NCBI GenBank assembly: GCA_009914755.4
Contig: CP086569.2
Span: forward strand, 53,888,001 to 53,952,000
From: the human T2T-CHM13v2.0 reference genome, Homo sapiens
DNA length: 64,000 nt
Reading direction: 5' to 3'
Both the position numbers and the translations under genes were made by a program. Below the pieces are notes generated by a model. That model was not told the DNA's origin. It did not search any database and saw only the letters and a list, made by a program, of their open reading frames with translations. The stretch's first letter is position 1. Every line of letters starts with the position of its first letter. Shown piece after piece: positions 1-33,389 of the stretch.

Positions 1-4
1 TGTA

Positions 5-3000: not shown

Positions 3001-3543
3001 GGAATGGCATCAAATGGAATGGCATCAAATGGAATGGAATCGAATGCAATGGAATGCTATGGAATGGAATGGAATGCATTGGAATGGAATGTCCTCTAAT
3101 GGAATGGATTCGAGTGGAATGGAATCGAATATAATGGAGTCGAATGAAATGGAATTGAAAGGAATGGGATCGAATACAATGGAATATACTGGAATGTAAT
3201 GTAATGAACTCGAATGTAATTGACTGGAATGGAATGTACATGAATGGAATGTAATCGAATGGAAAGTAATCCAATGGAATAGAATCTAATGCAATAAAAT
3301 CGACTCAGATAGAGTAGAATGTAATGGAATGGAGTGCAGTGCAATGGAATGGAATGGAATGGAATGCAATGGAATGGAATGGAATGGAATGGAATGGAAT
3401 GGAATGGGATGGGTTGGAATGGTATGGAATGGATAGTAATGGACTGGAGTGAAATGGACTGGAAAGGAATGGACTCAAATTGAAAGGGCTCGAAAGGAAT
3501 GGAGCCAAATGGAATGGTCTGGAATGGAATGAACACGAATGTA
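5..3543 (+). repeat. HOR unit U1 (3539 bp); subtype A (tgtaTTGcaatcc anchor, ...gaattgaatagaatgggaacgaatggaatgaaattgtatgcagtagaagagaatag..., tgcaagggaatgtag)
   Basis: Unit phase chosen arbitrarily at the anchor gta(a/t)tgcaatc(c/t)aatagaatggaatcgaatggcatggaatataaagaaatgg. Anchor at 5; next anchor at 3544. Confidence 0.85.
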
Positions 3544-6500
3544 ATGCAATCCAATAGAATGGAATCGAATGGCATGGAATATAAAGAAATGGAATCGAAG
3601 AGAATGGAAAAAAATGGAATGGAATTGAATGGAATGGAATTGAATGGAATGGGAACGAATGGAGTGAAATTTTATGCAGCAGAAAGGAATAGAATGGAAT
3701 GCAAGCGAAAGGAAAGGAATGGATTGGAATGGAATGGAATTCATTGGAATGGAAGGGAATGTAGTGTAATGGACAGGCCTGGAATAAAGTGGAATGCTAC
3801 GGTCTCGAATGGAATAAAAATGTATGGAATGGAATGCAATGAAACGGAATCGAATGTCATAGAATGTAATGGAATGCAAAAAAATGGAATCCAAAATCAT
3901 TGACTGGAAAGGCTGGGTGTCGAAAGGAATTGACTCCAATGGAATGGAATCGAATGGAATGGAAGTGAATAGAATCGAACTAAATCGAATGGAATGGAAT
4001 TGATAGGAACGGAATGGAAAGGAATGCAATGATTTGGCATGGAATGGAATCGAATGGCATCGAATGGAATGGAATGGAATGCAATGGAATGGAATGTATT
4101 AGAATGTAATGAACTTTAATGGAATGTACTCGAATGGATTCGACTGGAATGGAATGTTCCGGAAGTGAATGGACTCCAATGGAATGGATTCAAAAGGAAT
4201 GGAATCGTACGGAATGGAATCTAATGGAATGGAATTAAATGGAAATGAATCAAATTGAATAGCACGGAATTGAATTGAATGGAATCGAATGCAATGGAAT
4301 CTAATGAAACAGAAAGGAAAGGAATGGAATGGAACGGAATGGGCTGGAATGGAAAGGAATCGAAACGAATGGAATGGAATCGAACTGAAGAGACTGGAAT
4401 GGAATGCACTGGAATGGAAGGGAGTGTAATGGAAGGTTCTCGAAAAAAATGGAATCGAATGGAATGGAATTGAATGGAACGGAATAGAGTCGAATGGAAT
4501 TGAATGGAATGGAATGGACTAGAGTGAAATGGAATCGAACCACAAGGAATGGACAGGAATAGAATGGTCTCGAATTGAATGGAATCGTATGGAATGACAT
4601 CAAACGGAATGGAATGGACACCCACGGAATGGAATGCACTCGAATGCAATGGAGTCGAAACTAATGGACTGGAATAGAATGGACTCGACTGGTACGGACT
4701 CCAATGGAATGGAATCGAATGGAAGGGAATCGAACGGAATGGACTCGAAGGGAAAAGACTGCAATGGAAAGGTCTCGAATGGAATGGAAATTAATGGAAT
4801 GGAATGGAATCGAATGAAATGGAGTCAAAAGGAATGGAATCGAATGGCAAGAAATCGAATGTAATGGAATCGCAAGGAATTGATGTGAACGGAACGGAAT
4901 GGAATGGAATCCAAAGGAATGGAATAGAATGGAATGGAATCGAATGGAAAGGACTCGAATGGAAATCACTCGAATAGAATGCAATTTAATAAAATAGGAT
5001 CAAATGTAATGGAATGGAATGGAAAGGAATCGAAACGAAAGGAATGGAGACAGATGGAATGGAATGGAACAGAGAGCAATGGTATAGAATGGAATGGAAT
5101 CATGTGGAATGGAATTGAATGGAATGGAATAATATGAAATGGAATGGAATGGAATGCCCTTGAATTAAATGGACTGGAATGGAATGGACTCGAACAGAGT
5201 GGAATGGAAAGTGTTGAGATAGAATGGAATGGACTCCTTTGGAATGGTGTAGTATGCAATGCAATCGACTGGCCGGGAATCAAAAGGAATGTAATGGAAT
5301 GGATTGGACTGGAATGCAATGGACTCGAATAGATTGGAAACGGAATGCAAAGGAATGGAATGGAATAGTATGGAATGGAATGGAAAGGAATGGAGTGGAA
5401 TAGACTAGAGTGGAATGGAATGGACTGGAAAGCAATGGACTGGAATGGAACATTCTTGAATGGACTGGAATCAAACGGAATGGAATGCAATGCAATCAAA
5501 TGGCATGGAATAAAATAGAATGAAAGAGAATCAAATGGAATTGAATCGAATGGAATCGAATGGATTGGAAAGGAATAGAATGGAATGGAATGGAATTGAC
5601 TCAAATGGAATGGACTAGAATGGAATGGATTCGAATGGAAGGCAAAGGAATGGAATCTATTGGAATGGACTGTAATGGAATGGAATGGAAGGGATTGGAA
5701 TGGACTCGAATGGAGTGGACTGCAATAGAAAGGATTCGAATGGAATGAAAAAGAATTGAATGGAATAGAACAGAATGGAATCAAATCGAATGAAATGGAA
5801 TGGAATAGAAAGGAATGGAATGAAATGGAATGGAAAGGATTCGAATGGAATGCAATCGAATGGAATGGAATCGAACGGAATGGAATAAAATGGAAGAAAA
5901 CTGGCAAGAAATGGAATCGAAATGAATGGAGTGTTATGGAACGGACTCAAAAGGAATTGAATGTAATAGAATGGAGTGGAGTGGACTCGAATATAATGGA
6001 CTGGAATGGAATGAAATCACATGGAATGGGAACGAATGGAATGGAATGGAAAAGAATGGAATCGAATGGAAAGGAATCGAATGGAAGGGAATGAAATTGA
6101 ATCAACAGGAATGGAAGGGAATAGAATAGATGGTAATGGAATGGACTCGAATAGAATGGACACGAATGCTCAAATTGAATGGACTCGAATGGAATGGAAA
6201 CGAAAGGAATGTCATCGAATGGAATTGAATCGATTGGAATGAAATCGCATAGAATGGAGTGGAATCAAATGGAATTGAATCGAAAGGAAAGGAAGCGAAT
6301 GGACTGAAATGAAATGGAATGGAATTGAATGGAAAGTAATGCAATGGAATAGAATGGAACGAAATTTCACGGAATGGAATCAAACTGAATGGAATCAAAT
6401 CAATGGAATCAAATTAAATGGAATGGAAAGGAATTGAATGGAGTAGATTGGATTGGATGAGATTGGAATGAAATGAACTGGAAAGGACTCGAATTTCATG

Positions 6501-7092
6501 AAACGGAATGGAATGAATTGGAATGGAATGGACTCGAATGGAATGGAATGTCATGGAATGGCATCAAATGGAATGGCATCAAATGGAATGGAATCGAATG
6601 CAATGGAATGCTACGGAATGGAATGGAATGCATTGGAATGGAATGTCCTCTAATGGAATGGATTCGAGTGGAATGGAATCGAATATAATGGAGTCGAATG
6701 AAATGGAATTGAAAGGAATGGGATCGAATACAATGGAATATACTGGAATGTAATGTAATGAACTCGAATGTAATTGACTGGAATGGAATGTACATGAATG
6801 GAATGTAATCGAATGGAAAGTAATCCAATGGAATAGAATCTAATGCAATAAAATCGACTCAGATAGAGTAGAATGTAATGGAATGGAGTGCAGTGCAATG
6901 GAATGGAATGGAATGGAATGGAATGCAATGGAATGGAATGGAATGGAATGGAATGTGATGGGATGGAATGGTATGGAATGGATAGTAATGGACTGGAGTG
7001 AAATGGACTGGAAAGGAATGGACTCAAATTGAAAGGGCTCGAAAGGAATGGAGCCAAATGGAATGGTCTGGAATGGAATGAACACGAATGTA
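3544..7092 (+). repeat. HOR unit U2 (3549 bp); subtype B (ggaaaaaaatgg, gtgaaattttatgcagcagaaaggaatag)
   Basis: Anchor atgcaatccaatagaatgg at 3544. Pseudo-ORFs are identical to U3, e.g. 4221..4649 equals 7770..8198. Confidence 0.85.
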
Positions 7093-10000
7093 ATGCAATC
7101 CAATAGAATGGAATCGAATGGCATGGAATATAAAGAAATGGAATCGAAGAGAATGGAAAAAAATGGAATGGAATTGAATGGAATGGAATTGAATGGAATG
7201 GGAACGAATGGAGTGAAATTTTATGCAGCAGAAAGGAATAGAATGGAATGCAAGCGAAAGGAAAGGAATGGATTGGAATGGAATGGAATTCATTGGAATG
7301 GAAGGGAATGTAGTGTAATGGACAGGCCTGGAATAAAGTGGAATGCTACGGTCTCGAATGGAATAAAAATGTATGGAATGGAATGCAATGAAACGGAATC
7401 GAATGTCATAGAATGTAATGGAATGCAAAAAAATGGAATCCAAAATCATTGACTGGAAAGGCTGGGTGTCGAAAGGAATTGACTCCAATGGAATGGAATC
7501 GAATGGAATGGAAGTGAATAGAATCGAACTAAATCGAATGGAATGGAATTGATAGGAACGGAATGGAAAGGAATGCAATGATTTGGCATGGAATGGAATC
7601 GAATGGCATCGAATGGAATGGAATGGAATGCAATGGAATGGAATGTATTAGAATGTAATGAACTTTAATGGAATGTACTCGAATGGATTCGACTGGAATG
7701 GAATGTTCCGGAAGTGAATGGACTCCAATGGAATGGATTCAAAAGGAATGGAATCGTACGGAATGGAATCTAATGGAATGGAATTAAATGGAAATGAATC
7801 AAATTGAATAGCACGGAATTGAATTGAATGGAATCGAATGCAATGGAATCTAATGAAACGGAAAGGAAAGGAATGGAATGGAACGGAATGGGCTGGAATG
7901 GAAAGGAATCGAAACGAATGGAATGGAATCGAACTGAAGAGACTGGAATGGAATGCACTGGAATGGAAGGGAGTGTAATGGAAGGTTCTCGAAAAAAATG
8001 GAATCGAATGGAATGGAATTGAATGGAACGGAATAGAGTCGAATGGAATTGAATGGAATGGAATGGACTAGAGTGAAATGGAATCGAACCACAAGGAATG
8101 GACAGGAATAGAATGGTCTCGAATTGAATGGAATCGTATGGAATGACATCAAACGGAATGGAATGGACACCCACGGAATGGAATGCACTCGAATGCAATG
8201 GAGTCGAAACTAATGGACTGGAATAGAATGGACTCGACTGGTACGGACTCCAATGGAATGGAATCGAATGGAAGGGAATCGAACGGAATGGACTCGAAGG
8301 GAAAAGACTGCAATGGAAAGGTCTCGAATGGAATGGAAATTAATGGAATGGAATGGAATCGAATGAAATGGAGTCAAAAGGAATGGAATCGAATGGCAAG
8401 AAATCGAATGTAATGGAATCGCAAGGAATTGATGTGAACGGAACGGAATGGAATGGAATCCAAAGGAATGGAATAGAATGGAATGGAATCGAATGGAAAG
8501 GACTCGAATGGAAATCACTCGAATAGAATGCAATTTAATAAAATAGGATCAAATGTAATGGAATGGAATGGAAAGGAATCGAAACGAAAGGAATGGAGAC
8601 AGATGGAATGGAATGGAACAGAGAGCAATGGTATAGAATGGAATGGAATCATGTGGAATGGAATTGAATGGAATGGAATAATATGAAATGGAATGGAATG
8701 GAATGCCCTTGAATTAAATGGACTGGAATGGAATGGACTCGAACAGAGTGGAATGGAAAGTGTTGAGATAGAATGGAATGGACTCCTTTGGAATGGTGTA
8801 GTATGCAATGCAATCGACTGGCCGGGAATCAAAAGGAATGTAATGGAATGGATTGGACTGGAATGCAATGGACTCGAATAGATTGGAAAGGGAATGCAAA
8901 GGAATGGAATGGAATAGTATGGAATGGAATGGAAAGGAATGGAGTGGAATAGACTAGAGTGGAATGGAATGGACTGGAAAGCAATGGACTGGAATGGAAC
9001 ATTCTTGAATGGACTGGAATCAAACGGAATGGAATGCAATGCAATCAAATGGCATGGAATAAAATAGAATGAAAGAGAATCAAATGGAATTGAATCGAAT
9101 GGAATCGAATGGATTGGAAAGGAATAGAATGGAATGGAATGGAATTGACTCAAATGGAATGGACTAGAATGGAATGGATTCGAATGGAAGGCAAAGGAAT
9201 GGAATCTATTGGAATGGACTGTAATGGAATGGAATGGAAGGGATTGGAATGGACTCGAATGGAATGGACTGCAATAGAAAGGATTCGAATGGAATGAAAA
9301 AGAATTGAATGGAATAGAACAGAATGGAATCAAATCGAATGAAATGGAATGGAATAGAAAGGAATGGAATGAAATGGAATGGAAAGGATTCGAATGGAAT
9401 GCAATCGAATGGAATGGAATCGAACGGAATGGAATAAAATGGAAGAAAACTGGCAAGAAATGGAATCGAAATGAATGGAGTGTTATGGAACGGACTCAAA
9501 AGGAATTGAATGTAATAGAATGGAGTGGAGTGGACTCGAATATAATGGACTGGAATGGAATGAAATCACATGGAATGGGAACGAATGGAATGGAATGGAA
9601 AAGAATGGAATCGAATGGAAAGGAATCGAATGGAAGGGAATGAAATTGAATCAACAGGAATGGAAGGGAATAGAATAGATGGTAATGGAATGGACTCGAA
9701 TAGAATGGACACGAATGCTCAAATTGAATGGACTCGAATGGAATGGAAACGAAAGGAATGTCATCGAATGGAATTGAATCGATTGGAATGAAATCGCATA
9801 GAATGGAGTGGAATCAAATGGAATTGAATCGAAAGGAAAGGAAGCGAATGGACTGAAATGAAATGGAATGGAATTGAATGGAAAGTAATGCAATGGAATA
9901 GAATGGAACGAAATTTCACGGAATGGAATCAAACTGAATGGAATCAAATCAATGGAATCAAATTAAATGGAATGGAAAGGAATTGAATGGAGTAGATTGG

Positions 10001-10641
10001 ATTGGATGAGATTGGAATGAAATGAACTGGAAAGGACTCGAATTTCATGAAACGGAATGGAATGAATTGGAATGGAATGGACTCGAATGGAATGGAATGT
10101 CATGGAATGGCATCAAATGGAATGGCATCAAATGGAATGGAATCGAATGCAATGGAATGCTACGGAATGGAATGGAATGCATTGGAATGGAATGTCCTCT
10201 AATGGAATGGATTCGAGTGGAATGGAATCGAATATAATGGAGTCGAATGAAATGGAATTGAAAGGAATGGGATCGAATACAATGGAATATACTGGAATGT
10301 AATGTAATGAACTCGAATGTAATTGACTGGAATGGAATGTACATGAATGGAATGTAATCGAATGGAAAGTAATCCAATGGAATAGAATCTAATGCAATAA
10401 AATCGACTCAGATAGAGTAGAATGTAATGGAATGGAGTGCAGTGCAATGGAATGGAATGGAATGGAATGGAATGCAATGGAATGGAATGGAATGGAATGG
10501 AATGTGATGGGATGGAATGGTATGGAATGGATAGTAATGGACTGGAGTGAAATGGACTGGAAAGGAATGGACTCAAATTGAAAGGGCTCGAAAGGAATGG
10601 AGTCAAATGGAATGGTCTGGAATGGAATGAACACGAATGTA
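7093..10641 (+). repeat. HOR unit U3 (3549 bp); subtype B, near-identical copy of U2
   Basis: Anchor at 7093. The 134-aa + pseudo-ORF at 7048 is identical to the one at 3499. A second GGCC site (tggccggg) is present, as in U1 and U2. Confidence 0.85.
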
Positions 10642-13600
10642 ATGCAATCCAATAGAATGGAATCGAATGGCATGGAATATAAAGAAATGGAATCGAAGAG
10701 AATGGAAACAAATGGAATGGAATTGAATGGAATGGAATTGAATGGAATGGGAACGAATGGAGTGAAATTGTATGCAGTAGAAGGGAATAGAATGGAATGC
10801 AAGCGAAAGGAAAGGAATGGATTGGAATGGAATGGAATTCATTGGAATGGAAGGGAATGTAGTGTAATGGACAGGCCTGGAATAAAGTGGAATGCTACGG
10901 TCTCGAATGGAATAAAAATGTATGGAATGGAATGCAATGAAACGGAATCGAATGTCATAGAATGTAATGGAATGCAAAAAAATGGAATCCAAAATCATTG
11001 ACTGGAAAGGCTGGGTGTCGAAAGGAATTGACTCCAATGGAATGGAATCGAATGGAATGGAAGTGAATAGAATCGAACTAAATCGAATGGAATGGAATTG
11101 ATAGGAACGGAATGGAAAGGAATGCAATGATTTGGCATGGAATGGAATCGAATGGCATCGAATGGAATGGAATGGAATGCAATGGAATGGAATGTATTAG
11201 AATGTAATGAACTTTAATGGAATGTACTCGAATGGATTCGACTGGAATGGAATGTTCTCGAAGTGAATGGACTCCAATGGAATGGATTCCAAAGGAATGG
11301 AATCGTACGGAATGGAATCTAATGGAATGGAATTAAATGGAAATGAATCAAATTGAATAGCACGGAATTGAATTGAATGGAATGGAATGCAATGGAATCT
11401 AATGAAACGGAAAGGAAAGGAATGGAATGGAATGGAATGGGCTGGAATGGAAAGGAATCGAAACGAATGGAATGGAATCGAACTGAAGAGACTGGAATGG
11501 AATGCACTGGAATGGAAGGGAGTGTAATGGAAGGTTCTCGAAAAAAATGGAATGGAATGGAATGGAATTGAATGGAACGGAATAGAGTCGAATGGAATTG
11601 AATGGAATGGAATGGACTAGAGTGAAATGGAATCGAACCACAAGGAATGGACAGGAATAGAATGGTCTCGAATTGAATGGAATCGTATGGAATGGCATCA
11701 AACGGAATGGAATGGACAGCCACGGAATGGAATGCACTCGAATGCAATGGAGTCGAAACTAATGGACTGGAATAGAATGGACTCGACTGGTACGGACTCC
11801 AATGGAATGGAATCGAATGGAAGGGAATCGAACGGAATGGACTCGAAGGGAAAAGACTGCAATGGAAAGGTCTCGAATGGAATGGAAATTAATGGAATGG
11901 AATGGAATCGAATGAAATGGAGTCAAAAGGAATGGAATCGAATGGCAAGAAATCGAATGTAATGGAATCGCAAGGAATTGATGTGAACGGAACGGAATGG
12001 AATGGAATCCAAAGGAATGGAACAGAATGGAATGGAATCGAATGGAAAGGACTCGAATGGAAATCACTCGAATAGAATGCAATTTAATAAAATAGGATCA
12101 AATGTAATGGAATGGAATGGAAAGGAATCGAAACGAAAGGAATGGAGACAGATGGAATGGAATGGAACAGAGAGCAATGGTATAGAATGGAATGGAATCA
12201 TCTGGAATGGAATTGAATGGAATGGAATAATATGAAATGGAATGGAATGGAATGGAATGCCCTTGAATTAAATGGACTGGAATGGAATGGACTCGAACAG
12301 AGTGGAATGGAAAGTGTTGAGATAGAATGGAATGGACTCCTTTGGAATGGTGTAGTATGCAATGCAATCGACTGGCAGGGAATCAAAAGGAATGTAATGG
12401 AATGGATTGGACTGGAATGCAATGGACTCGAATAGATTGGAAACGGAATGCAAAGGAATGGAATGGAATAGTATGGAATGGAATGGAAAGGAATGGAGTG
12501 GAATAGACTAGAGTGGAATGGAATGGACTGGAAAGCAATGGACTGGAATGGAACTTTCTTGAATGGACTGGAATCAAACGGAATGGAATGCAATGCAATC
12601 AAATGGCATGGAATAAAATAGAATGAAAGAGAATCAAATGGAATTGAATCGAATGGAATCGAATGGATTGGAAAGGAATAGAATGGAATGGAATGGAATG
12701 GACTAGAATGGAATGGATTCGAATGGAAGGCAAAGGAATGGAATCTATTGGAATGGACTGTAATGGAATGGAATGGAAGGGATTGGAATGGACTCGAATG
12801 GAATGGACTGCAATAGAAAAGATTCGAATGGAATGAAAAAGAATTGAATGGAATAGAACAGAATGGAATCAAATCGAATGAAATGGAATGGAATAGAAAG
12901 GAATGGAATGAAATGGAATGGAAAGGATTCGAATGGAATGCAATCGAATGGAATGGAATCGAACGGAATGGAATAAAATGGAAGAAAACTGGCAAGAAAT
13001 GGAATCGAAATGAATGGAGTGTTATGGAACGGACTCAAAAGGAATTGAATGTAATAGAATGGAGTGGAGTGGATTCGAATATAATGGACTGGAATGGAAT
13101 GAAATCACATGGAATGGGAACGAATGGAATGGAATGGAAAAGAATGGAATCGAATGGAAAGGATTCGAATGGAAGGGAATGAAATTGAATCAACAGGAAT
13201 GGAAGGGAATAGAATAGACGGTAATGGAATGGACTCGAATAGAATGGACACGAATGCTCAAATTGAATGGACTCGAATGGAATGGAAACGAAAGGAATGT
13301 CATCGAATGGAATTGAATCGATTGGAATGAAATCGCATAGAATGGAGTGGAATCAAATGGAATTGAATCGAAAGGAAAGGAAGCGAATGGACTGAAATGA
13401 AATGGAATGGAATTGAATGGAAAGTAATGCAATGGAATAGAATGGAACGAAATTTCACGGAATGGAATCAAACTGAATGGAATCAAATCAATGGAATCAA
13501 ATCAAATGGAATGGAAAGGAATTGAATGGAGTAGATTGGATTGGATGGGATTGGAATGAAATGTACTGGAAAGGACTCGAATTTCATGAAACGGAATGGA

Positions 13601-14180
13601 ATGAATTGGAACGGAATGGACTCGAATGGAATGGAATGTCATGGAATGGCATCAAATGGAATGGCATCAAATGGAATGGAATCGAATGCAATGGAATGCT
13701 ATGGAATGGAATGGAATGCATTGGAATGGAATGTCCTCTAATGGAATGGATTCGAGTGGAATGGAATCGAATATAATGGAGTCGAATGAAATGGAATTGA
13801 AAGGAATGGGATCGAATACAATGGAATATACAGGAATGTAATGTAATGAACTCGAATGTAATTGACTGGAATGGAATGTACATGAATGGAATGTAATCGA
13901 ATGGAAAGTAATCCAATGGAATAGAATCTAATGCAATAAAATCGACTCAGATAGAGTAGAATGTAATGGAATGGAGTGCAGTGCAATGGAATGGAATGGA
14001 ATGGAATGGAATGCAATGGAATGGAATGGAATGGAAAGGAATGTGATGGGATGGAATGGTATGGAATGGATAGTAATGGACTGGAGTGAAATGGACTGGA
14101 AAGGAATGGACTCAAATTGAAAGGGCTCGAAAGGAATGGAGTCAAATGGAATGGTCTGGAATGGAATGAACACGAATGTA
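10642..14180 (+). repeat. HOR unit U4 (3539 bp); subtype C (ggaaacaaatgg, gtgaaattgtatgcagtagaagggaatag)
   Basis: Anchor at 10642. Near-identical to U5. The second GGCC site is lost (gactggcaggg). Confidence 0.85.
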
Positions 14181-17100
14181 ATGCAATCCAATAGAATGGA
14201 ATCGAATGGCATGGAATATAAAGAAATGGAATCGAAGAGAATGGAAACAAATGGAATGGAATTGAATGGAATGGAATTGAATGGAATGGGAACGAATGGA
14301 GTGAAATTGTATGCAGTAGAAGGGAATAGAATGGAATGCAAGCGAAAGGAAAGGAATGGATTGGAATGGAATGGAATTCATTGGAATGGAAGGGAATGTA
14401 GTGTAATGGACAGGCCTGGAATAAAGTGGAATGCTACGGTCTCGAATGGAATAAAAATGTATGGAATGGAATGCAATGAAACGGAATCGAATGTCATAGA
14501 ATGTAATGGAATGCAAAAAAATGGAATCCAAAATCATTGACTGGAAAGGCTGGGTGTCGAAAGGAATTGACTCCAATGGAATGGAATCGAATGGAATGGA
14601 AGTGAATAGAATCGAACTAAATCGAATGGAATGGAATTGATAGGAACGGAATGGAAAGGAATGCAATGATTTGGCATGGAATGGAATCGAATGGCATCGA
14701 ATGGAATGGAATGGAATGCAATGGAATGGAATGTATTAGAATGTAATGAACTTTAATGGAATGTACTCGAATGGATTCGACTGGAATGGAATGTTCTGGA
14801 AGTGAATGGACTCCAATGGAATGGATTCAAAAGGAATGGAATCGTACGGAATGGAATCTAATGGAATGGAATTAAATGGAAATGAATCAAATTGAATAGC
14901 ACGGAATTGAATTGAATGGAATGGAATGCAATGGAATCTAATGAAACGGAAAGGAAAGAAATGGAATGGAATGGAATGGAATGGGCTGGAATGGAAAGGA
15001 ATCGAAACGAATGGAATGGAATCGAAGTGAAGAGACTGGAATGGAATGCACTGGAATGGAAGGGAGTGTAATGGAAGGTTCTCGAAAAAAATGGAATGGA
15101 ATGGAATGGAATTGAATGGAACGGAATAGAGTCGAATGGAATTGAATGGAATGGAATGGACTAGAGTGAAATGGAATCGAACCACAAGGAATGGACAGGA
15201 ATAGAATGGTCTCGAATTGAATGGAATCGTATGGAATGGCATCAAACGGAATGGAATGGACAGCCACGGAATGGAATGCACTCGAATGCAATGGAGTCGA
15301 AACTAATGGACTGGAATAGAATGGACTCGACTGGTACGGACTCCAATGGAATGGAATCGAATGGAAGGGAATCGAACGGAATGGACTCGAAGGGAAAAGA
15401 CTGCAATGGAAAGGTCTCGAATGGAATGGAAATTAATGGAATGGAATGGAATCGAATGAAATGGAGTCAAAAGGAATGGAATCGAATGGCAAGAAATCGA
15501 ATGTAATGGAATCGCAAGGAATTGATGTGAACGGAACGGAATGGAATGGAATCCAAAGGAATGGAACAGAATGGAATGGAATCGAATGGAAAGGACTCGA
15601 ATGGAAATCACTCGAATAGAATGCAATTTAATAAAATAGGATCAAATGTAATGGAATGGAATGGAAAGGAATCGAAACGAAAGGAATGGAGACAGATGGA
15701 ATGGAATGGAACAGAGAGCAATGGTATAGAATGGAATGGAATCATCTGGAATGGAATTGAATGGAATGGAATAATATGAAATGGAATGGAATGGAATGGA
15801 ATGGAATGCCCTTGAATTAAATGGACTGGAATGGAATGGACTCGAACAGAGTGGAATGGAAAGTGTTGAGATAGAATGGAATGGACTCCTTTGGAATGGT
15901 GCAGTATGCAATGCAATCGACTGGCAGGGAATCAAAAGGAATGTAATGGAATGGATTGGACTGGAATGCAATGGACTCGAATAGATTGGAAACGGAATGC
16001 AAAGGAATGGAATGGAATAGTATGGAATGGAATGGAAAGGAATGGAGTGGAATAGACTAGAGTGGAATGGAATGGACTGGAAAGCAATGGACTGGAATGG
16101 AACTTTCTTGAATGGACTGGAATCAAACGGAATGGAATGCAATGCAATCAAATGGCATGGAATAAAATAGAATGAAAGAGAATCAAATGGAATTGAATCG
16201 AATGGAATCGAATGGATTGGAAAGGAATAGAATGGAATGGAATGGAATTGACTCAAATGGAATGGACTAGAATGGAATGGATTCGAATGGAAGGCAAAGG
16301 AATGGAATCTATTGGAATGGACTGTAATGGAATGGAATGGAAGGGATTGGAATGGACTCGAATGGAATGGACTGCAATAGAAAGGATTCGAATGGAATGA
16401 AAAAGAATTGAATGGAATAGAACAGAATGGAATCAAATCGAATGAAATGGAATGGAATAGAAAGGAATGGAATGAAATGGAATGGAAAGGATTCGAATGG
16501 AATGCAATCGAATGGAATGGAATCAAACGGAATGGAATAAAATGGAAGAAAACTGGCAAGAAATGGAATCGAAATGAATGGAGTGTTATGGAACGGACTC
16601 AAAAGGAATTGAATGTAATAGAATGGAGTGGAGTGGACTCGAATATAATGGACTGGAATGGAATGAAATCACATGGAATGGGAACGAATGGAATGGAATG
16701 GAAAGGAATGGAATCGAATGGAAAGGAATCGAATGGAAGGGAATGAAATTGAATCAACAGGAATGGAAGGGAATAGAATAGACGGTAATGGAATGGACTC
16801 GAATAGAATGGACACGAATGCTCAAATTGAATGGACTCGAATGGAATGGAAACGAAAGGAATGTCATCGAATGGAATTGAATCGATTGGAATGAAATCGC
16901 ATAGAATGGAGTGGAATCAAATGGAATTGAATCGAAAGGAAAGGAAGCGAATGGACTGAAATGAAATGGAATGGAATTGAATGGAAAGTAATGCAATGGA
17001 ATAGAATGGAACGAAATTTCACGGAATGGAATCAAACTGAATGGAATCAAATCAATGGAATCTAATCAAAGGAATGGAAAGGAATTGAATGGAGTAGATT

Positions 17101-17748
17101 GGATTGGATGGGATTGGAATGAAATGTACTGGAAAGGACTCGAATTTCATGAAACGGAATGGAATGAATTGGAACGGAATGGACTCGAATGGAATGGAAT
17201 GTCATGGAATGGCATCAAATGGAATGGCATCAAATGGAATGGAATCGAATGCAATGGAATGCTATGGAATGGAATGGAATGCATTGGAATGGAATGTCCT
17301 CTAATGGAATGGATTCGAGTGGAATGGAATCGAATATAATGGAGTCGAATGAAATGGAATTGAAAGGAATGGGATCGAATTCAATGGAATATACTGCAAT
17401 GTAATGTTATGAACTCGAATGTAATTGACTGGAATGGAATGTACATGAATGGAATGTAATCGAATGGAAAGTAATCCAATGGAATAGAATCTAATGCAAT
17501 AAAATCGACTCAGATAGAGTAGAATGTAATGGAATGGAGTGCAGTGCAATGGAATGGAATGGAATGGAATGCAATGGAATGGAATGGAATGGAATGGAAT
17601 GGAATGGAACGGAATGGGATGGAATGGTATGGAATGGATAGTAATGGACTGGAGTGAAATGGACTGGAAAGGAATGGACTCAAATTGAAAGGGCTCGAAA
17701 GGAATGCAGTCAAATGCAATGGTCTGGAATGGAATGAACACGAATGTA
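14181..17748 (+). repeat. HOR unit U5 (3568 bp); subtype C, near-identical copy of U4
   Basis: Anchor at 14181. The pseudo-ORF at 14136 is identical to the one at 10597. Confidence 0.85.
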
Positions 17749-20700
17749 TTGCAATCTAATAGAATGGAATCGAATGGCATGGAATATAAAGAAATGGAAT
17801 CGAAGAGAATGGAAACAAATGGAATGGAATTGAATGGAATGGAATTGAATAGAATGGGAACGAATGGAATGAAATTGTATGCAGTAGAAGAGAATAGAAT
17901 GGAATGCAAGCGAAAGGAAAGGAATGGATTGGAATGGAATGGAATTCATTGGAATGCAAGGGAATGTAGTGTAATGGACAGGCCTGGAATAAAGTGGAAT
18001 GCTACGGTCTCGAATGGAATAAAAATGTATGGAATGGAATGCAATGAAACGGAATCGAATGTCATAGAATGTAATGGAATGCAAAAAAATGGAATCCAAA
18101 ATCATTGACTGGAAAGGCTGGGTGTCGAAAGGAATTGACTCCAATGTAATGGAATCAAATGGAATGGAAGTGAATAGAATCGAACTAAATCGAATGGAAT
18201 GGAATTGATAGGAACGGAATGGAAAGGAATGCAATGATTTGGCATGGAATGGAATCGAATGGCATCGAATGGAATGGAATGGAATGCAATGGAATGGAAT
18301 GTATTAGAATGTAATGAACTTTAATGGAATGTACTCGAATGGATTCGACTGGAATGGAATGTTCTGGAAGTGAATGGACTCCAATGGAATGGATTCCAAA
18401 GGAATGGAATCGTACGGAATGGAATCTAATGGAATGGAATTAAATGGAAATGAATCAAATTGAATAGCACGGAATTGAATTGAATGGAATGGAATGCAAT
18501 GGAATCTAATGAAACGGAAAGGAAAGGAATGGAATGGAATGGAATGGGCTGGAATGGAAAGGAATCGAAACGAATGGAATGGAATCGAACTGAAGAGACT
18601 GGAATGGAATGCACTGGAATGGAAGGGAGTGTAATGGAAGGTTCTCGAAAAAAATGGAATGGAATGGAATGGAATTGAATGGAACGGAATAGAGTCGAAT
18701 GGAATTGAATGGAATGGAATGGACTAGAGTGAAATGGAATCGAACCACAAGGAATGGACAGGAATAGAATGGTCTCGAATTGAATGGAATCGTATGGAAT
18801 GGCATCAAACGGAATGGAATGGACAACCACGGAATGGAATGCACTCGAATGCAATGGAGTCGAAACTAATGGACTGGAATAGAATGGACTCGACTGGTAC
18901 GGACTCCAATGGAATGGAATCGAATGGAAGGGAATCGAACGGAATGGACTCGAAGGGAAAAGACTGCAATGGAAAGGTCTCGAATGGAATGGAAATTAAT
19001 GGAATGGAATGGAATCGAATGAAATGGAGTCAAAAGGAATGGAATCGAATGGCAAGAAATCGAATGTAATGGAATCGCAAGGAATTGATGTGAACGGAAC
19101 GGAATGGAATGGAATCCAAAGGAATGGAACAGAATGGAATGGAATCGAATGGAAAGGACTCGAATGGAAATCACTCGAATAGAATGCAATTTAATAAAAT
19201 AGGATCAAATGTAATGGAATGGAATGGAAAGGAATCGAAACGAAAGGAATGGAGACAGATGGAATGGAATGGAACAGAGAGCAATGGTATAGAATGGAAT
19301 GGAATCATCTGGAATGGAATTGAATGGAATGGAATAATATGAAATGGAATGGAATGGAATGGAATGGAATGCCCTTGAATTAAATGGACTGGAATGGAAT
19401 GGACTCGAACAGAGTGGAATGGAAAGTGTTGAGATAGAATGGAATGGACTCCTTTGGAATGGTGTAGTATGCAATGCAATCGACTGGCAGGGAATCAAAA
19501 GGAATGTAATGGAATGGATTGGACTGGAATGCAATGGACTCGAATAGATTGGAAACGGAATGCAAAGGAATGGAATGGAATAGTATGGAATGGAATGGAA
19601 AGGAATGGAGTGGAATAGACTAGAGTGGAATGGAATGGACTGGAAAGCAATGGACTGGAATGGAACTTTCTTGAATGGACTGGAATCAAACGGAATAGAA
19701 TGCAATGCAATCAAATGGCATGGAATAAAATAGAATGAAAGAGAATCAAATGGAATTGAATCGAATGGAATCGAATGGATTGGAAAGGAATAGAATGGAA
19801 TGGAATGGAATTGACTCAAATGGAATGGACTAGAATGGAATGGATTCGAATGGAAGGCAAAGGAATGGAATCTATTGGAATGGACTGTAATGGAATGGAA
19901 TGGAAGGGATTGGAATGGACTCGAATGGAATGGACTGCAATAGAAAGGATTCGAATGGAATGAAAAAGAATTGAATGGAATAGAACAGAATGGAATCAAA
20001 TCGAATGAAATGGAATGGAATAGAAAGGAATGGAATGAAATGGAATGGAAAGGATTCGAATGGAATGCAATCGAATGGAATGGAATCAAACGGAATGGAA
20101 TAAAATGGAAGAAAACTGGCAAGAAATGGAATCGAAATGAATGGAGTGTTATGGAACGGACTCAAAAGGAATTGAATGTAATAGAATGGAGTGGAGTGGA
20201 CTCGAATATAATGGACTGGAATGGAATGAAATCACATGGAATGGGAACGAATGGAATGGAATGGAAAGGAATGGAATCGAATGGAAAGGAATCGAATGGA
20301 AGGGAATGAAATTGAATCAACAGGAATGGAAGGGAATAGAATAGACGGTAATGGAATGGACTCGAATAGAATGGACACGAATGCTCAAATTGAATGGACT
20401 CGAATGGAATGGAAACGAAAGGAATGTCATCGAATGGAATTGAATCGATTGGAATGAAATCGCATAGAATGGAGTGGAATCAAATGGAATTGAATCGAAA
20501 GGAAAGGAAGCGAATGGACTGAAATGAAATGGAATGGAATTGAATGGAAAGTAATGCAATGGAATAGAATGGAACGAAATTTCACGGAATGGAATCAAAC
20601 TGAATGGAATCAAATCAATTGAATCTAATCAAAGGAATGGAAAGGAATTGAATGGAGTAGATTGGACTGGATGGGATTGGAATGAAATGTACTGGAAAGG

Positions 20701-21311
20701 ACTCGAATTTCATGAAACGGAATGGAATGAATTGGAACGGAATGGACTCGAATGGAATGGAATGTCATGTAATGGCATCAAATGGAATGGCATCAAATGG
20801 AATGGAATCGAATGCAATGGAATGCTATGGAATGGAATGGAATGCATTGGAATGGAATGTCCTCTAATGGAATGGATTCGAGTGGAATGGAATCGAATAT
20901 AATGGAGTCGAATGAAATGGAATTGAAAGGAATGGGATCGAATTCAATGGAATATACTGCAATGTAATGTAATGAACTCGAATGTAATTGACTGGAATGG
21001 AATGTACATGAATGGAATGTAATCGAATGGAAAGTAATCCAATGGAATAGAATCTAATGCAATAAAATCGACTCAGATAGAGTAGAATGTAATGGAATGG
21101 AGTGCAGTGCAATGGAATGGAATGGAATGGAATGCAATGGAATGGAATGGAATGGAATGGAATGGAATGGAACGGAATGGGATGGAATGGTATGGAATGG
21201 ATAGTAATGGACTGGAGTGAAATGGACTGGAAAGGAATGGACTCAAATTGAAAGGGCTCGAAAGGAATGCAGTCAAATGCAATGGTCTGGAATGGAATGA
21301 ACACGAATGTA
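17749..21311 (+). repeat. HOR unit U6 (3563 bp); subtype A (same private variants as U1)
   Basis: Anchor variant tgtattgcaatctaatagaatgg at 17749. Shares gaattgaatagaatgggaacgaatggaatgaaattgtatgcagtagaagagaatag and tgcaagggaatgtag with U1. Confidence 0.85.
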
Positions 21312-24300
21312 TTGCAATCTAATAGAATGGAATCGAATGGCATGGAATATAAAGAAATGGAATCGAAGAGAATGGAAACAAATGGAATGGAATTGAATGG
21401 AATGGAATTGAATAGAATGGGAACGAATGGAATGAAATTGTATGCAGTAGAAGAGAATAGAATGGAATGCAAGCGAAAGGAAAGGAATGGATTTGAATGG
21501 AATGGAATTCATTGGAATGCAATGGAATGTAGTGTAATGGACAGGCCTGGAATAAAGTGGAATGCTACGGTCTCGAATGGAATAAAAATGTATGGAATGG
21601 AATGCAATGAAACGGAATCGAATGTCATAGAATGTAATGGAATGCAAAAAAATGGAATCCAAAATCATTGACTGGAAAGGCTGGGTGTCGAAAGGAATTG
21701 ACTCCAATGTAATGGAATCAAATGGAATGGAAGTGAATAGAATCGAACTAAATCGAATGGAATGGAATTGATAGGAACGGAATGGAAAGGAATGCAATGA
21801 TTTGGCATGGAATGGAATCGAATGGCATCGAATGGAATGGAATGGAATGCAATGGAATGGAATGTATTAGAATGTAATGAACTTTAATGGAATGTACTCG
21901 AATGGATTCGACTGGAATGGAATGTTCTGGAAGTGAATGGACTCCAATGGAATGGATTCCAAAGGAATGGAATCGTACGGAATGGAATCTAATGGAATGG
22001 AATTAAATGGAAATGAATCAAATTGAATAGCACGGAATTGAATTGAATGGAATGGAATGCAATGGAATCTAATGAAACGGAAAGGAAAGGAATGGAATGG
22101 AATGGAATGGGCTGGAATGGAAAGGAATCGAAACGAATGGAATGGAATCGAACTGAAGAGACTGGAATGGAATGCACTGGAATGGAAGGGAGTGTAATGG
22201 AAGGTTCTCGAAAAAAATGGAATGGAATGGAATGGAATTGAATGGAACGGAATAGAGTCGAATGGAATTGAATGGAATGGAATGGACTAGAGTGAAATGG
22301 AATCGAACCACAAGGAATGGACAGGAATAGAATGGTCTCGAATTGAATGGAATCGTATGGAATGGCATCAAACGGAATGGAATGGACAGCCACGGAATGG
22401 AATGCACTCGAATGCAATGGAGTCGAAACTAATGGACTGGAATAGAATGGACTCGACTGGTACGGACTCCAATGGAATGGAATCGAATGGAAGGGAATCG
22501 AACGGAATGGACTCGAAGGGAAAAGACTGCAATGGAAAGGTCTCGAATGGAATGGAAATTAATGGAATGGAATGGAATCGAATGAAATGGAGTCAAAAGG
22601 AATGGAATCGAATGGCAAGAAATCGAATGTAATGGAATCGCAAGGAATTGATGTGAACGGAACGGAATGGAATGGAATCCAAAGGAATGGAACAGAATGG
22701 AATGGAATCGAATGGAAAGGACTCGAATGGAAATCACTCGAATAGAATGCAATTTAATAAAATAGGATCAAATGTAATGGAATGGAATGGAAAGGAATCG
22801 AAACGAAAGGAATGGAGACAGATGGAATGGAATGGAACAGAGAGCAATGGTATAGAATGGAATGGAATCATCTGGAATGGAATTGAATGGAATGGAATAA
22901 TATGAAATGGAATGGAATGGAATGGAATGGAATGCCCTTGAATTAAATGGACTGGAATGGAATGGACTCGAACAGAGTGGAATGGAAAGTGTTGAGATAG
23001 AATGGAATGGACTCCTTTGGAATGGTGTAGTATGCAATGCAATCGACTGGCAGGGAATCAAAAGGAATGTAATGGAATGGATTGGACTGGAATGCAATGG
23101 ACTCGAATAGATTGGAAACGGAATGCAAAGGAATGGAATGGAATAGTATGGAATGGAATGGAAAGGAATGGAGTGGAATAGACTAGAGTGGAATGGAATG
23201 GACTGGAAAGCAATGGACTGGAATGGAACTTTCTTGAATGGACTGGAATCAAACGGAATGGAATGCAATGCAATCAAATGGCATGGAATAAAATAGAATG
23301 AAAGAGAATCAAATGGAATTGAATCGAATGGAATCGAATGGATTGGAAAGGAATAGAATGGAATGGAATGGAATTGACTCAAATGGAATGGACTAGAATG
23401 GAATGGATTCGAATGGAAGGCAAAGGAATGGAATCTATTGGAATGGACTGTAATGGAATGGAATGGAAGGGATTGGAATGGACTCGAATGGAATGGACTG
23501 CAATAGAAAGGATTCGAATGGAATGAAAAAGAATTGAATGGAATAGAACAGAATGGAATCAAATCGAATGAAATGGAATGGAATAGAAAGGAATGGAATG
23601 AAATGGAATGGAAAGGATTCGAATGGAATGCAATCGAATGGAATGGAATCGAACGGAATGGAATAAAATGGAAGAAAACAGGCAAGAAATGGAATCGAAA
23701 GGAATGGAGTGTTATGGAACGGACTCAAAAGGAATTGAATGTAATAGAATGGAGTGGAGTGGACTCGAATATAATGGACTGGAATGGAATGAAATCACAT
23801 GGAATGGGAACGAATGGAATGGAATGGAAAGGAATGGAATCGAATGGAAAGGAATCGAATGGAAGGGAATGAAATTGAATCAACAGGAATGGAAGGGAAT
23901 AGAATAGACGGTAATGGAATGGACTCGAATAGAATGGACACGAATGCTCAAATTGAATGGCCTCGAATGGAATGGAAACGAAAGGAATGTCATCGAATGG
24001 AATTGAATCGATTGGAATGAAATCGCATAGAATGGAGTGGAATCAAATGGAATTGAATCGAAAGGAAAGGAAGCGAATGGACTGAAATGAAATGGAATGG
24101 AATTGAATGGAAAGTAATGCAATGGAATAGAATGGAACGAAATTTCACGGAATGGAATCAAACTGAATGGAATCAAATCAATGGAATCAAATCAAATGGA
24201 ATGGAAAGGAATTGAATGGAGTAGATTGGATTGGATGGGATTGGAATGAAATGTACTGGAAAGGACTCGAATTTCATGAAACGGAATGGAATGAATTGGA

Positions 24301-24870
24301 ACGGAATGGACTCGAATGGAATGGAATGTCATGGAATGGCATCAAATGGAATGGCGTCAAATGGAATGGAATCGAATGCAATGGAATGCTATGGAATGGA
24401 ATGGAATGCATTGGAATGGAATGTCCTCTAATGGAATGGATTCGAGTGGAATGGAATCGAATATAATGGAGTCGAATGAAATGGAATTGAAAGGAATGGG
24501 ATCGAATACAATGGAATATATTGGAATGTAATGTAATGAACTCGAATGTAATTGACTGGAATGGAATGTACATGAATGGAATGTAATCGAATGGAAAGTA
24601 ATCCAATGGAATAGAATCTAATGCAATAAAATCGACTCAGATAGAGTAGAATGTAATGGAATGGAGTGCAGTGCAATGCAATGGAATGGAATGGAATGCA
24701 ATGGAATGGAATGGAATGGAATGGAATGGAATGGAATGGGATGGAATGGTATGGAATGGATAGTAGTGGACTGGAGTGAAATGGACTGGAAAGGAATGGA
24801 CTCAAATTGAAAGGGCTCGAAAGGAATGGAGTCAAATGGAATGGTCTGGAATGGAATGAACACGAATGTA
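21312..24870 (+). repeat. HOR unit U7 (3559 bp); subtype A, near-identical to U6
   Basis: Anchor at 21312. The pseudo-ORF at 21267 differs from the one at 17704 at only 3 residues. Confidence 0.85.
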
Positions 24871-27800: not shown

Positions 27801-28364
27801 TTTCATGAAACGGAATGGAATGAATTGGAACGGAATGGACTCGAATGGAATGGAATGTCATGTAATGGCATCAAATGGAATGGCATCAAATGGAATGGAA
27901 TCGAATGCAATGGAATGCTATGGAATGGAATGGAATGCATTGGAATGGAATGTCCTCTAATGGAATGGATTCGAGTGGAATGGAATCGAATATAATGGAG
28001 TCGAATGAAATGGAATTGAAAAGAATGGGATCGAATACAATGGAATATACTGGAATGTAATGTAATGAACTCGAATGTAATTGACTGGAATGGAATGTAC
28101 ATGAATGGAATGTAATCGAATGGAAAGTAATCCAATGGAATAGAATCTAATGCAATAAAATCGACTCAGATAGAGTAGAATGTAATGGAATGGAGTGCAG
28201 TGCAATGGAATGGAATGGAATGCAATGGAATGGAATGGAATGGAATGGGATGGAATGGCATGGAATGGATAGTAATGGACTGGAAAGGAATGGACTCAAA
28301 TTGAAAGGGCTCGAAAGGAATGGAGACAAATGGAATGGTCTGGAATGGAATGAACACGAATGTA
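24871..28364 (+). repeat. HOR unit U8 (3494 bp); subtype C backbone with several private deletions and substitutions
   Basis: Anchor at 24871. Shorter unit: about 20 bp is missing near 26440-26470 and about 30 bp near 28210-28300. A private substitution cluster lies near 26630-26660. Confidence 0.8.
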
Positions 28365-32965: not shown

Positions 32966-33005
32966 GGAATGGAATGGACAGCCACGGAATGGAATGGACA
33001 GCCAC
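32966..33005 (+). repeat. Same 20-bp tandem duplication ggaatggaatggacagccac (U10)
   Basis: Read directly. Shared only by the adjacent units U9 and U10. Confidence 0.9.
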
Positions 33006-33389
33006 GGAATGGAATGCACTCGAATGCAATGGAGTCGACACTAATGGACTGGAATAGAATGGACTCGACTGGTACGGACTCCAATGGAATGGAATCGAAT
33101 GGAAGGGAATCGAACGGAATGGACTCGAAGGGAAAAGACTGCAATGGAAAGGTCTCGAATGGAATGGAAATTAATGGAATGGAATGGAATCGAATGAAAT
33201 GGAGTCAAAAGGAATGGAATCGAATGTCAAGAAATCGAATGTAATGGAATCGCAAGGAATTGATGTGAACGGAACGGAATGGAATGGAATCCAAAGGAAT
33301 GGAATAGAATGGAATGGAATCGAATGGAAAGGACTCGAATGGAAATCACTCGAATAGAATGCAATTTAATAAAATAGGATCAAATGTAA

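What the first reader, a model, noticed from the sequence alone, without database searches (positions are those of the whole stretch)
3544..24870. Adjacent HOR units occur as near-identical pairs (U2=U3, U4=U5, U6=U7), each pair a different subtype
Within each pair the six-frame pseudo-ORF strings are letter-identical or differ at 1-3 residues. Examples are 3499 vs 7048, 10597 vs 14136, and 17704 vs 21267. Between pairs there are many fixed differences. Subtype B has ggaaaaaaatgg and ttttatgcagcagaaagg. Subtype C has ggaaacaaatgg and ttgtatgcagtagaaggg. Subtype A has tgtattgcaat, agaatgggaacg and gtagaagagaat. This block-wise pattern is the signature of very recent local duplication or gene conversion (unequal sister-chromatid exchange) acting on one or two units at a time.
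Basis: seen in the sequence. Interest (0 to 1): 0.5.

Follow-up and report, generated by a model that had tools for sequence, protein, structure and literature searches.

The report
Recent one-unit duplications in DYZ1

Summary
All 64 kb are human Y-chromosome DYZ1 (HSat3A6). The units are 3.5-3.6 kb, built from GGAAT, and 98.4-99.5% identical over their full length to a published 3564-bp DYZ1 clone.

The pairing claim is only partly true.
- U2/U3 (3499-7047 vs 7048-10596) is a real near-identical pair: 3 substitutions, no indels, 99.915%, and 13 derived sites found in no other unit.
The true second duplicate is phase-shifted: 16062-19624 vs 19625-23187, with 8 substitutions, no indels, 99.775%. 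U6 is a hybrid, U7-like at its 5' end and U5-like at its 3' end.
- U4/U5 is not a pair. It is 99.46% identical with 5 indel events, no closer than either is to U14, ~34-38 kb away. The "subtype C" motifs are simply the DYZ1 consensus.

The mechanism it proposed is right in kind. There were two independent duplications of exactly one unit, best explained by unequal sister-chromatid exchange. With the published Yq12 pedigree mutation rate they date to roughly 1,100 and 2,900 generations. This behaviour is documented for Yq12, so interest is low.

The parts
1..64000 (-). Uninterrupted DYZ1 (HSat3A6) array of about 18 units. The conventional TTCCA strand is the window's minus strand. The alignment consensus is 3564 bp.
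   Evidence: A GGAAT-based tandem repeat covers 9-64000. The units are 98.4-99.5% identical to the published 3564-bp DYZ1 HaeIII clone. Seven of eight published DYZ1 primers hit once per unit. The consensus length is 3564 bp.
3499..7047 (.).
   Evidence: It differs from U3 by 3 substitutions and 0 indels. Thirteen derived substitutions are shared only by U2 and U3.
7048..10596 (.). U3, second copy of duplication 1 (3549 bp).
   Evidence: Same evidence as for U2. The differences lie at 4311/7860, 5341/8890 and 5715/9264. Each is a singleton against the consensus, and two fall in CpG sites.
6964..7053 (.). Breakpoint interval of duplication 1, about 90 bp. The homologous intervals are 3415-3504 and 10513-10602.
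   Evidence: The last U1-vs-U2 difference is at 3414 and the first U3-vs-U4 difference is at 7054. The run of lag-one identity is therefore one unit plus about 90 bp.
16062..19624 (.). First copy of duplication 2 (3563 bp): the 3' part of U5 plus the 5' part of U6. The phase can be moved within the breakpoint interval.
   Evidence: It differs from 19625-23187 by 8 substitutions and 0 indels, 99.775%, the minimum of the phase scan. It is also the minimum of the lag-one scan.
19625..23187 (.). Second copy of duplication 2 (3563 bp): the 3' part of U6 plus the 5' part of U7.
17704..21266 (.). U6, the hybrid unit made by the exchange. Its 5' part matches U7 and its 3' part matches U5.
   Evidence: A triplet test gives 14 of 16 informative sites U7-like on the left and 15 of 16 U5-like on the right (Fisher p = 6.8e-6, permutation p = 2e-4).
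19465..20088 (.). Best-supported switch interval inside U6. The conservative interval is 18591-20087, if the U5 singleton at alignment column 2150 arose after the duplication.
10597..17703 (.). U4 and U5, claimed as a pair but not one. They are identical only over the first ~660 bp, where both carry the consensus.
   Evidence: They differ by 19 substitutions and 5 indel events. The first difference is at 11259. Phases starting within U4 (each unit-length stretch compared with the stretch one unit further on) give the lowest lag-one identities among U1-U5.
3499..3903 (+). The 134-codon stop-free pseudo-ORF at the start of the unit. It is a by-product of the GGAAT repeat, not a gene.

Best explanation
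The window is a stretch of the human Y-chromosome long-arm satellite DYZ1 (HSat3A6), a 3.56-kb higher-order repeat derived from the pentamer GGAAT/ATTCC.

Inside the flagged region, two independent events each added exactly one repeat unit. The likely mechanism is exchange between copies misaligned by one unit, most plausibly sister chromatids, since this part of the Y has no homologue.

Event 1 is the younger. The exchange fell within a ~90-bp interval at the U1/U2, U2/U3 and U3/U4 junction position. It produced U2 and U3, which have since gained 3 point differences.

Event 2 is older. The exchange fell between two already related neighbours, the present U5 and U7, at a point in the second half of the unit. 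It created the hybrid U6 (U7 5' part plus U5 3' part). The two 3563-bp copies now differ at 8 sites.

U4/U5 and the other units show only the ordinary background of ~0.5-1.5% divergence, with mosaic sharing of variants. That background comes from older exchanges and from gene conversion.

Shown here: the identity of the repeat, the two runs of one-period identity, and the hybrid structure of U6. Inferred: that the exchange was between sister chromatids, and the ages.
For: Identity of the repeat:
- A pentamer-based array covers the whole window.
- The alignment consensus is 3564 bp.
- There is one conserved GGCC (HaeIII) site per unit.
- Seven of eight published DYZ1 primers hit once per unit, at the published offsets from the HaeIII site (primers from PMC3925983).
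- The units are 98.4-99.5% identical over their full length to the 3564-bp MZT1a DYZ1 clone.
- A 3604-bp contig of human contamination is 99.89% identical to the window consensus.
- GC content is 38-40%, matching the 38% reported for DYZ1 (10.1101/2022.12.01.518658).

The duplications:
- U2/U3 differ by 3 substitutions and no indels. The next closest pair in the window differs by 15 substitutions and 2 indel events, and the median over non-adjacent pairs is 1.17%.
- The run of lag-one identity for event 1 is 3549 + 90 bp. Dense differences resume immediately on both sides. An exchange at a one-unit offset predicts exactly this. A conversion tract of arbitrary length does not.
- U6 switches once from U7-like to U5-like.
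- The 13 sites shared only by U2 and U3, and 9 sites restricted to U6 and U7 (some also in U1), carry derived alleles almost absent from seven external DYZ1 sequences: a single match, at one U2/U3 site in L006. They therefore look local, not family-wide.

Literature:
- Whole-unit de novo structural variants arise about once per Y transmission, and the Yq12 single-nucleotide rate is 3.86e-7 per bp per generation (PMC12240836).
Against: - The sequence alone cannot separate a crossover from replication slippage or template switching of one unit. It also cannot exclude a gene-conversion tract that happens to be one unit long.
- For event 2 the low-divergence run spans about 1.4 units (15028-20087). 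The 'exactly one unit' argument is weaker there and depends on U5 and U7 having been similar beforehand.
- The overall distance effect across the window is modest. Adjacent pairs are closer than non-adjacent pairs (Mann-Whitney p = 0.0035), but the Mantel test gives r = 0.13, p = 0.10.
- No second Y haplotype could be examined, so the copy-number gain itself was not observed.
- Over-homogenisation of neighbouring units by the assembler or polisher cannot be excluded with these tools.
Confidence: 0.8

Rival explanations
1. Gene conversion without any change in copy number. One unit-sized stretch was overwritten by its neighbour through non-crossover repair from a sister chromatid misaligned by one unit.
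For: Twenty-nine per cent of de novo Yq12 single-nucleotide changes match non-orthologous Yq12 sites, which the authors interpret as interlocus gene conversion (PMC12240836). A 2026 preprint puts the figure at 17% of events (PMC13252187). The units show mosaic sharing of variants. U1 carries the U6/U7 5' haplotype and the U2/U3 middle haplotype. U4 is U5-like at its 5' end and U3-like at its 3' end.
Against: The event 1 run of identity equals one period to within 90 bp. A conversion tract has no reason to be 3549 bp long. Both events have zero indels across 3.55 kb, although the units otherwise differ by 1-5 indel events. Conversion tracts of several kb would also be unusually long.
Confidence: 0.12
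2. One reading: the array is organised as three adjacent pairs (U2=U3, U4=U5, U6=U7), each a distinct subtype made by its own recent duplication in the reader's unit phase.
For: The first 402 bp of each unit match within each claimed pair. The quoted motifs are present where stated.
Against: Full-unit identities for U4/U5 (99.46%) and U6/U7 (99.49%) are no better than for U5/U6 (99.47%) or U4-U14 and U5-U14. The 'subtype C' motifs are the consensus, present in 11-15 units and in all six external contigs. Phases starting within U4 (each unit-length stretch compared with the stretch one unit further on) give the lowest lag-one identity in the U1-U5 stretch.
Confidence: 0.03
3. Assembly or polishing artefact. 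Neighbouring near-identical repeats were homogenised or mis-joined by a long-read assembler, creating false identity.
For: Yq12 is among the hardest regions of the genome to assemble. No read-level data are available here.
Against: The copies keep 3 and 8 singleton differences. They sit among units with normal divergence. The hybrid unit has a single clean switch, whereas polishing errors would be expected to give patchy mixing.
Confidence: 0.05

Closest known systems
DYZ1 / HSat3A6, the 3.56-kb HaeIII repeat of human Yq12
   Same: The pentamer origin, the 3564-bp consensus and the single HaeIII site per unit all match. The units are 98.4-99.5% identical over their full length to a published clone, the published primer sites are present, and GC content is about 38-40%.
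   Different: Nothing essential differs. This stretch contains some irregular units: U8 is short, U9 is diverged, U10 has an internal duplication and U11 is 1.5 units long. Three units carry an extra HaeIII site. No DYZ2 boundary lies within the window.
Homogenisation of satellite arrays by unequal crossing-over (the classical unequal-exchange model, as applied to Yq12 by Rhie et al. 2023 and Hallast et al. 2023)
   Same: Neighbouring units are closer than distant ones. There are duplications of exactly one period and a hybrid unit at the exchange point. The published descriptions of Yq12 invoke the same mechanism.
   Different: The published analyses stress large duplications (up to 5 Mb) and gradients at the scale of whole arrays. 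Here the events are resolved at single-unit scale, with breakpoint intervals of ~90 bp and ~0.6-1.5 kb. This is a finer view of the same process.
De novo whole-unit structural variants in Yq12 seen in pedigrees (Porubsky et al. 2025, PMC12240836)
   Same: Those variants are gains or losses of whole repeat units, about once per Y transmission. They are the live version of the events inferred here.
   Different: The reported de novo variants affected DYZ2 units (2.4-4.8 kb). The two events here are in DYZ1 and are old enough to have gained 3 and 8 substitutions.

Membership tests
DYZ1 / HSat3A6 (human Yq12 satellite) | The sequence derives from tandem GGAAT/ATTCC pentamers. | tested here: met
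   Tandem Repeats Finder reports multiples of the pentamer (AATGG)n across 9-64000. GC skew is strong and constant.
DYZ1 / HSat3A6 (human Yq12 satellite) | The higher-order period is about 3.56 kb. | tested here: met
   Unit lengths are 3494-3587 bp for 14 regular units. The alignment consensus is 3564 bp, the published unit length (PMC3925983).
DYZ1 / HSat3A6 (human Yq12 satellite) | There is one HaeIII (GGCC) site per unit, giving the classic ~3.5-kb male-specific fragment. | tested here: met
   A conserved GGCC lies at unit offset 277 (262 in U16-U17; 236 in the 5'-truncated U1) in every unit. Extra sites occur in U1-U3 and U7 only.
DYZ1 / HSat3A6 (human Yq12 satellite) | The sequence is highly identical over its full length to an experimentally cloned DYZ1 unit. 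| tested here: met
   Identity to the 3564-bp MZT1a blood clone from PMC3925983 Additional file 1 is 98.41-99.47%, in reverse-complement orientation.
DYZ1 / HSat3A6 (human Yq12 satellite) | The published DYZ1 PCR primer sites are present in the right order. | tested here: met
   Seven of the eight primers in PMC3925983 Table 5 hit once per unit with 0-2 mismatches, at the published distances from the HaeIII site. Primer H misses only because, as printed, it lacks one G. Two sexing primers recalled from memory also hit once per unit, 154 bp apart, but I could not verify them in the paper library.
DYZ1 / HSat3A6 (human Yq12 satellite) | The array lies in Yq12 and alternates with DYZ2/HSat1B blocks. 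| not testable with these tools
   The window is DYZ1 from end to end, and no human genome collection is available. Published DYZ1 blocks are 50 kb to 3.6 Mb, so a 64-kb window without DYZ2 is expected.
One-unit tandem duplication by unequal (sister-chromatid) exchange | The run of identity at a lag of one unit equals one repeat period, with divergence resuming on both sides. | tested here: met
   For event 1 the run is 3639 bp against a 3549-bp unit. For event 2 two 3563-bp copies differ by 8 substitutions and no indels, but the low-divergence run extends to about 1.4 units.
One-unit tandem duplication by unequal (sister-chromatid) exchange | The middle unit is a hybrid, with a single switch between the haplotypes of its two neighbours. 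| tested here: met
   U6 is U7-like at 14 of 16 sites on the left and U5-like at 15 of 16 on the right (permutation p = 2e-4). For event 1 the switch falls at the unit junction, so U2 and U3 are whole copies.
One-unit tandem duplication by unequal (sister-chromatid) exchange | There is a gain of one unit relative to the ancestral or a sister haplotype. | not testable with these tools
   No other Y assemblies could be searched. The external DYZ1 contigs recovered (L001-L006) are short contaminant fragments.
   The identities are 99.915% (U2/U3), 99.463% (U4/U5) and 99.494% (U6/U7). The non-pairs U5/U6 (99.467%), U14/U15 and U12/U14 are as close or closer.

The most novel reading that the evidence does not exclude
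The two one-unit duplications, with their private haplotypes of 13 sites (shared only by U2 and U3) and 9 sites (restricted to U6 and U7, some also in U1) and their breakpoints resolved to ~90 bp and ~0.6 kb, could be lineage-specific markers. Scored across the many available Y assemblies, they might allow direct calibration of the per-unit unequal-exchange rate in DYZ1. They might also show whether exchanges favour particular positions in the unit, for example the pure (GGAAT)n tracts where the out-of-register U11 junction lies.
Probability: 0.25. Interest if true: 0.25.

Novelty: already known. Interest (0 to 1): 0.1.

Why it matters
It matters little beyond housekeeping. The window is confidently placed in human Yq12 DYZ1. 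It gives a clean example, at single-unit resolution, of the unequal-exchange homogenisation already described for this region. The practical lesson concerns method. Comparing only the first ~400 bp of each 3.56-kb unit overstated the regularity, and duplicated segments in a satellite need not be in phase with the chosen unit boundaries. If the two events could be scored across the published Y assemblies, they might help calibrate DYZ1 turnover rates.

Tried and rejected
- Literature searches for two DYZ1 sexing primers recalled from memory found nothing. A search for 'DYZ1, primers, 154 bp' returned an irrelevant paper. Primers and a full clone sequence from PMC3925983 were used instead.
- An exact scan of metagenome contigs for the U2/U3-specific 37-mer found nothing. 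The degenerate control pattern found only 4 metagenome contigs and 2 'bacterial genome' contigs, all with consensus alleles. The absence of B-type alleles elsewhere therefore has little power.
- Multi-unit duplications were looked for at lags of 2-6 units in both halves of the window. No window had 14 or fewer differences, so 'two units at a time' is rejected.
- The Mantel test of divergence against array distance was weak (r = 0.13, p = 0.10). The adjacency effect is real (Mann-Whitney p = 0.0035) but is driven by a few pairs.
- The alignment-based event counts inflated indel events, so the phase scan was redone with direct pairwise alignments.
- The pseudo-ORFs were not pursued as genes. They are stop-free frames of a GGAAT repeat that recur in every unit. 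No protein, RNA-family or structure searches were warranted.
Full report
**What the window is**

Tandem Repeats Finder reports one continuous pentamer-based array, (AATGG)n and its multiples, across 9-64000. GC content is a constant 38-40% with strong G-over-C skew.

A 45-bp anchor recurs every ~3.55 kb. It defines units starting at 3499, 7048, 10597, 14136, 17704, 21267, 24826, 28320, 31869, 35769, 41137, 44691, 48269, 51843, 55430, 58992 and 62566. A MAFFT alignment of all units has a consensus of 3564 bp.

That length, the pentamer and the single conserved GGCC per unit pointed to the human Y satellite DYZ1. I tested this directly in three ways.
- Seven of the eight DYZ1 primers printed in PMC3925983 hit once per unit, on the expected strand and at the published distances from the HaeIII site.
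- The 3564-bp DYZ1 clone printed in that paper's Additional file 1 aligns to the HaeIII-phased units of the window at 98.41-99.47% over its full length, in reverse complement.
- A pattern scan recovered human-contaminant DYZ1 contigs from a 'Streptomyces' assembly, a 'Polyangiaceae' MAG and four metagenomes. The 3604-bp MAG contig is 99.89% identical to the window consensus.

The window is therefore DYZ1/HSat3A6 from Yq12. Published descriptions give ~3.5-3.6 kb units, 38% GC, >98% identity among units and mostly antisense orientation. All of these agree with the window.

**Checking the observation**

The stop-free 134-codon frame that begins each unit is identical for 3499 vs 7048 and for 10597 vs 14136, and differs at 2 residues for 17704 vs 21267. 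This frame covers only 402 bp of each 3.56-kb unit.

The 10597/14136 string is also identical at 24826, 44691 and 48269. The 'subtype C' motifs occur in 11-15 of the 18 units and in all six external DYZ1 contigs. They are simply the DYZ1 consensus. The 'subtype B' motifs are indeed exclusive to U2 and U3. The 'subtype A' motifs occur in U6, U7 and also U1.

All-against-all global alignment of full units gives:

| Pair | Substitutions | Indel events | Identity |
|---|---|---|---|
| U2/U3 | 3 | 0 | 99.915% |
| U4/U5 | 19 | 5 | 99.463% |
| U6/U7 | 18 | 2 | 99.494% |
| U5/U6 (not claimed) | 19 | 1 | 99.467% |

U4-U14 and U5-U14, which lie ~34-38 kb apart, are as close as U4/U5.

**What is really there**

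Duplicated segments need not be in phase with the chosen unit boundary, so I compared every position with its homologue one unit further on. In the whole window only two unit-length stretches have 8 or fewer differences. One starts at about 3421 (3 differences) and the other at about 15910 (8 differences). The median is 30-33.

Direct pairwise alignments at stepped phases confirm this.
- 3499-7047 vs 7048-10596: 3 substitutions, no indels.
- 16062-19624 vs 19625-23187: 8 substitutions, no indels, both 3563 bp (99.775%).
- Every phase starting within U4 (each unit-length stretch compared with the stretch one unit further on): 99.18-99.47% with 1-5 indel events, the worst in the U1-U5 stretch.

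For the first event, the last U1-vs-U2 difference is at 3414 and the first U3-vs-U4 difference is at 7054. Dense differences lie beyond both points. The identity run is thus one period (3549 bp) plus about 90 bp. This places the exchange point in a ~90-bp interval at the unit junction (6964-7053 and its homologues). The three differences are all singletons against the consensus, and two are in CpG sites.

For the second event, a triplet analysis shows that U6 is a hybrid. It matches U7 at 14 of 16 informative sites up to alignment column 2150, and matches U5 at 15 of 16 sites from column 2773. The switch therefore lies at window 19465-20088 (Fisher p = 6.8e-6, permutation p = 2e-4). This is the product expected when two neighbours, the present U5 and U7, pair out of register by one unit and exchange.

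**Mechanism and rivals**

A run of lag-one identity exactly one period long, plus a hybrid middle unit, is the classical footprint of unequal exchange. On the male-specific Y the partner is most plausibly the sister chromatid. Rhie et al. describe Yq12 rearrangements as consistent with unequal exchange and saw sister-chromatid exchanges there in about 15% of Strand-seq libraries. Porubsky et al. observed whole-unit de novo structural variants about once per Y transmission.

- Gene conversion is the main rival. It clearly operates in Yq12: 29% of de novo single-nucleotide changes match non-orthologous sites, and 17% of events do in a 2026 preprint. It probably explains the mosaic sharing of variants seen here. 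U1 carries the U6/U7 5' haplotype and the U2/U3 middle haplotype, and U4 is U3-like at its 3' end. A conversion tract, however, has no reason to be 3549 ± 90 bp long or to remove every indel difference over 3.5 kb.
- An assembly artefact cannot be excluded without reads. The clean single switch and the retained singleton differences argue against it.
- Two-unit events are not supported.

**Ages (inference)**

These use the pedigree-measured Yq12 rate of 3.86e-7 per bp per generation (PMC12240836) and t = k/(2µL).
- Three differences in 3549 bp give about 1,100 generations (Poisson 95% interval about 230-3,200).
- Eight differences in 3563 bp give about 2,900 generations (about 1,250-5,700).

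At the roughly ten-fold lower euchromatic Y rate (my background knowledge), the ages would exceed the age of the human Y tree, so the satellite-specific rate is the more credible. 'Very recent' should be read as tens of thousands of years.

**Local or family-wide?**

Thirteen substitution sites are derived in U2 and U3 only. Nine are restricted to U6 and U7, some also in U1. Their derived alleles are almost absent from the published clone and the six external contigs: a single match, at one U2/U3 site in L006. This fits a local origin, but seven short sequences give little power.

**Context in the window**

Adjacent units are on average closer than non-adjacent ones (median 0.86% vs 1.17%, Mann-Whitney p = 0.0035). 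Median differences rise with lag, 33, 38, 45, 51 for lags of 1-4 units in the first half. The Mantel correlation over the whole window is weak (p = 0.10).

The middle of the window is irregular. U8 is short (3494 bp). U9 is the most diverged unit (54 substitutions from the consensus). U10 has a ~346-bp internal tandem duplication. U11 is 1.5 units long, with an out-of-register junction inside a pure (GGAAT)n run. Units from U10 onward share a set of 3'-end alleles absent from U1-U9, which suggests two sub-domains.

**Verdict**

The phenomenon is the known homogenisation of DYZ1 by unequal exchange, so it is already known and of low interest.

Noticed in passing
L001 (NZ_JBFAJD010000109.1, 'Streptomyces sp. 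NPDC050549'); L002 (CAYVXY010000078.1, 'uncultured Polyangiaceae' MAG); L003-L006 (metagenome contigs): Public 'bacterial' genome and metagenome contigs consist of human Y DYZ1. L002 is 3604 bp and 99.89% identical to the window consensus, and L001 is 99.3% identical. These are human male DNA contamination in those assemblies.
   Followed up: partly
window 33391-34091 (inside U10, 31869-35768): U10 is 3900 bp because of an internal tandem duplication of ~346 bp, consensus positions ~1512-1857. Tandem Repeats Finder reports period 341, 2.0 copies and 93% matches. The duplication is out of register with the unit.
   Followed up: partly
window 35769-41136 (U11), junction at ~39189-39204: U11 is 5368 bp, about 1.5 units. 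A nearly full unit, up to consensus position ~3435, is joined directly to consensus position ~1646 of the next. The junction lies inside an uninterrupted (GGAAT)n run, which suggests an out-of-register exchange or deletion between two pure pentamer tracts.
   Followed up: partly
window 24826-31868 (U8, U9): U8 is the shortest full unit (3494 bp, with several deletions of 15-30 bp). U9 is the most diverged (54 substitutions from the consensus, ~97% identity). Together with U10 and U11 they form an irregular zone in the middle of the window.
   Followed up: no
alignment columns 3618, 3754, 3837, 3902, i.e. the 3' ends of units from ~35000 to 64000: Most units from U10/U11 onward share derived alleles near the 3' end of the unit that U1-U9 lack. 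The 64 kb may therefore span two array sub-domains, with the boundary in the irregular U8-U11 zone.
   Followed up: no
window 1732, 5271, 8820 (U1-U3) and 23959 (U7): These are extra HaeIII (GGCC) sites in addition to the conserved one per unit. U1-U3 share one, as they also share derived alleles at alignment columns 1643, 2174 and 2352. These units would cut into ~1.5-kb and ~2.05-kb fragments instead of 3.56 kb. U1 is also related to U2/U3 in its middle third.
   Followed up: partly
window 1-460 (U1 5' part) vs 17704-18160 and 21267-21720: U1 shares the 5' 'subtype A' haplotype (6 derived sites) with the non-adjacent U6 and U7, about 17-21 kb away. In its middle part it matches U2/U3. This mosaic suggests older exchanges or gene conversion.
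   Followed up: partly
whole window: Most indels between units are multiples of 5 bp (5, 10, 15, 20), alongside a few shorter ones (1 and 8 bp). This fits slippage in the pentamer register. Two of the three U2/U3 point differences hit CpG sites.
   Followed up: no
window 3499-3903 and every unit start: The 134-codon ATG-initiated open frames that recur at each unit start (MESNGMVWNG...) are by-products of the stop-poor GGAAT repeat. They are not evidence of coding sequence.
   Followed up: partly
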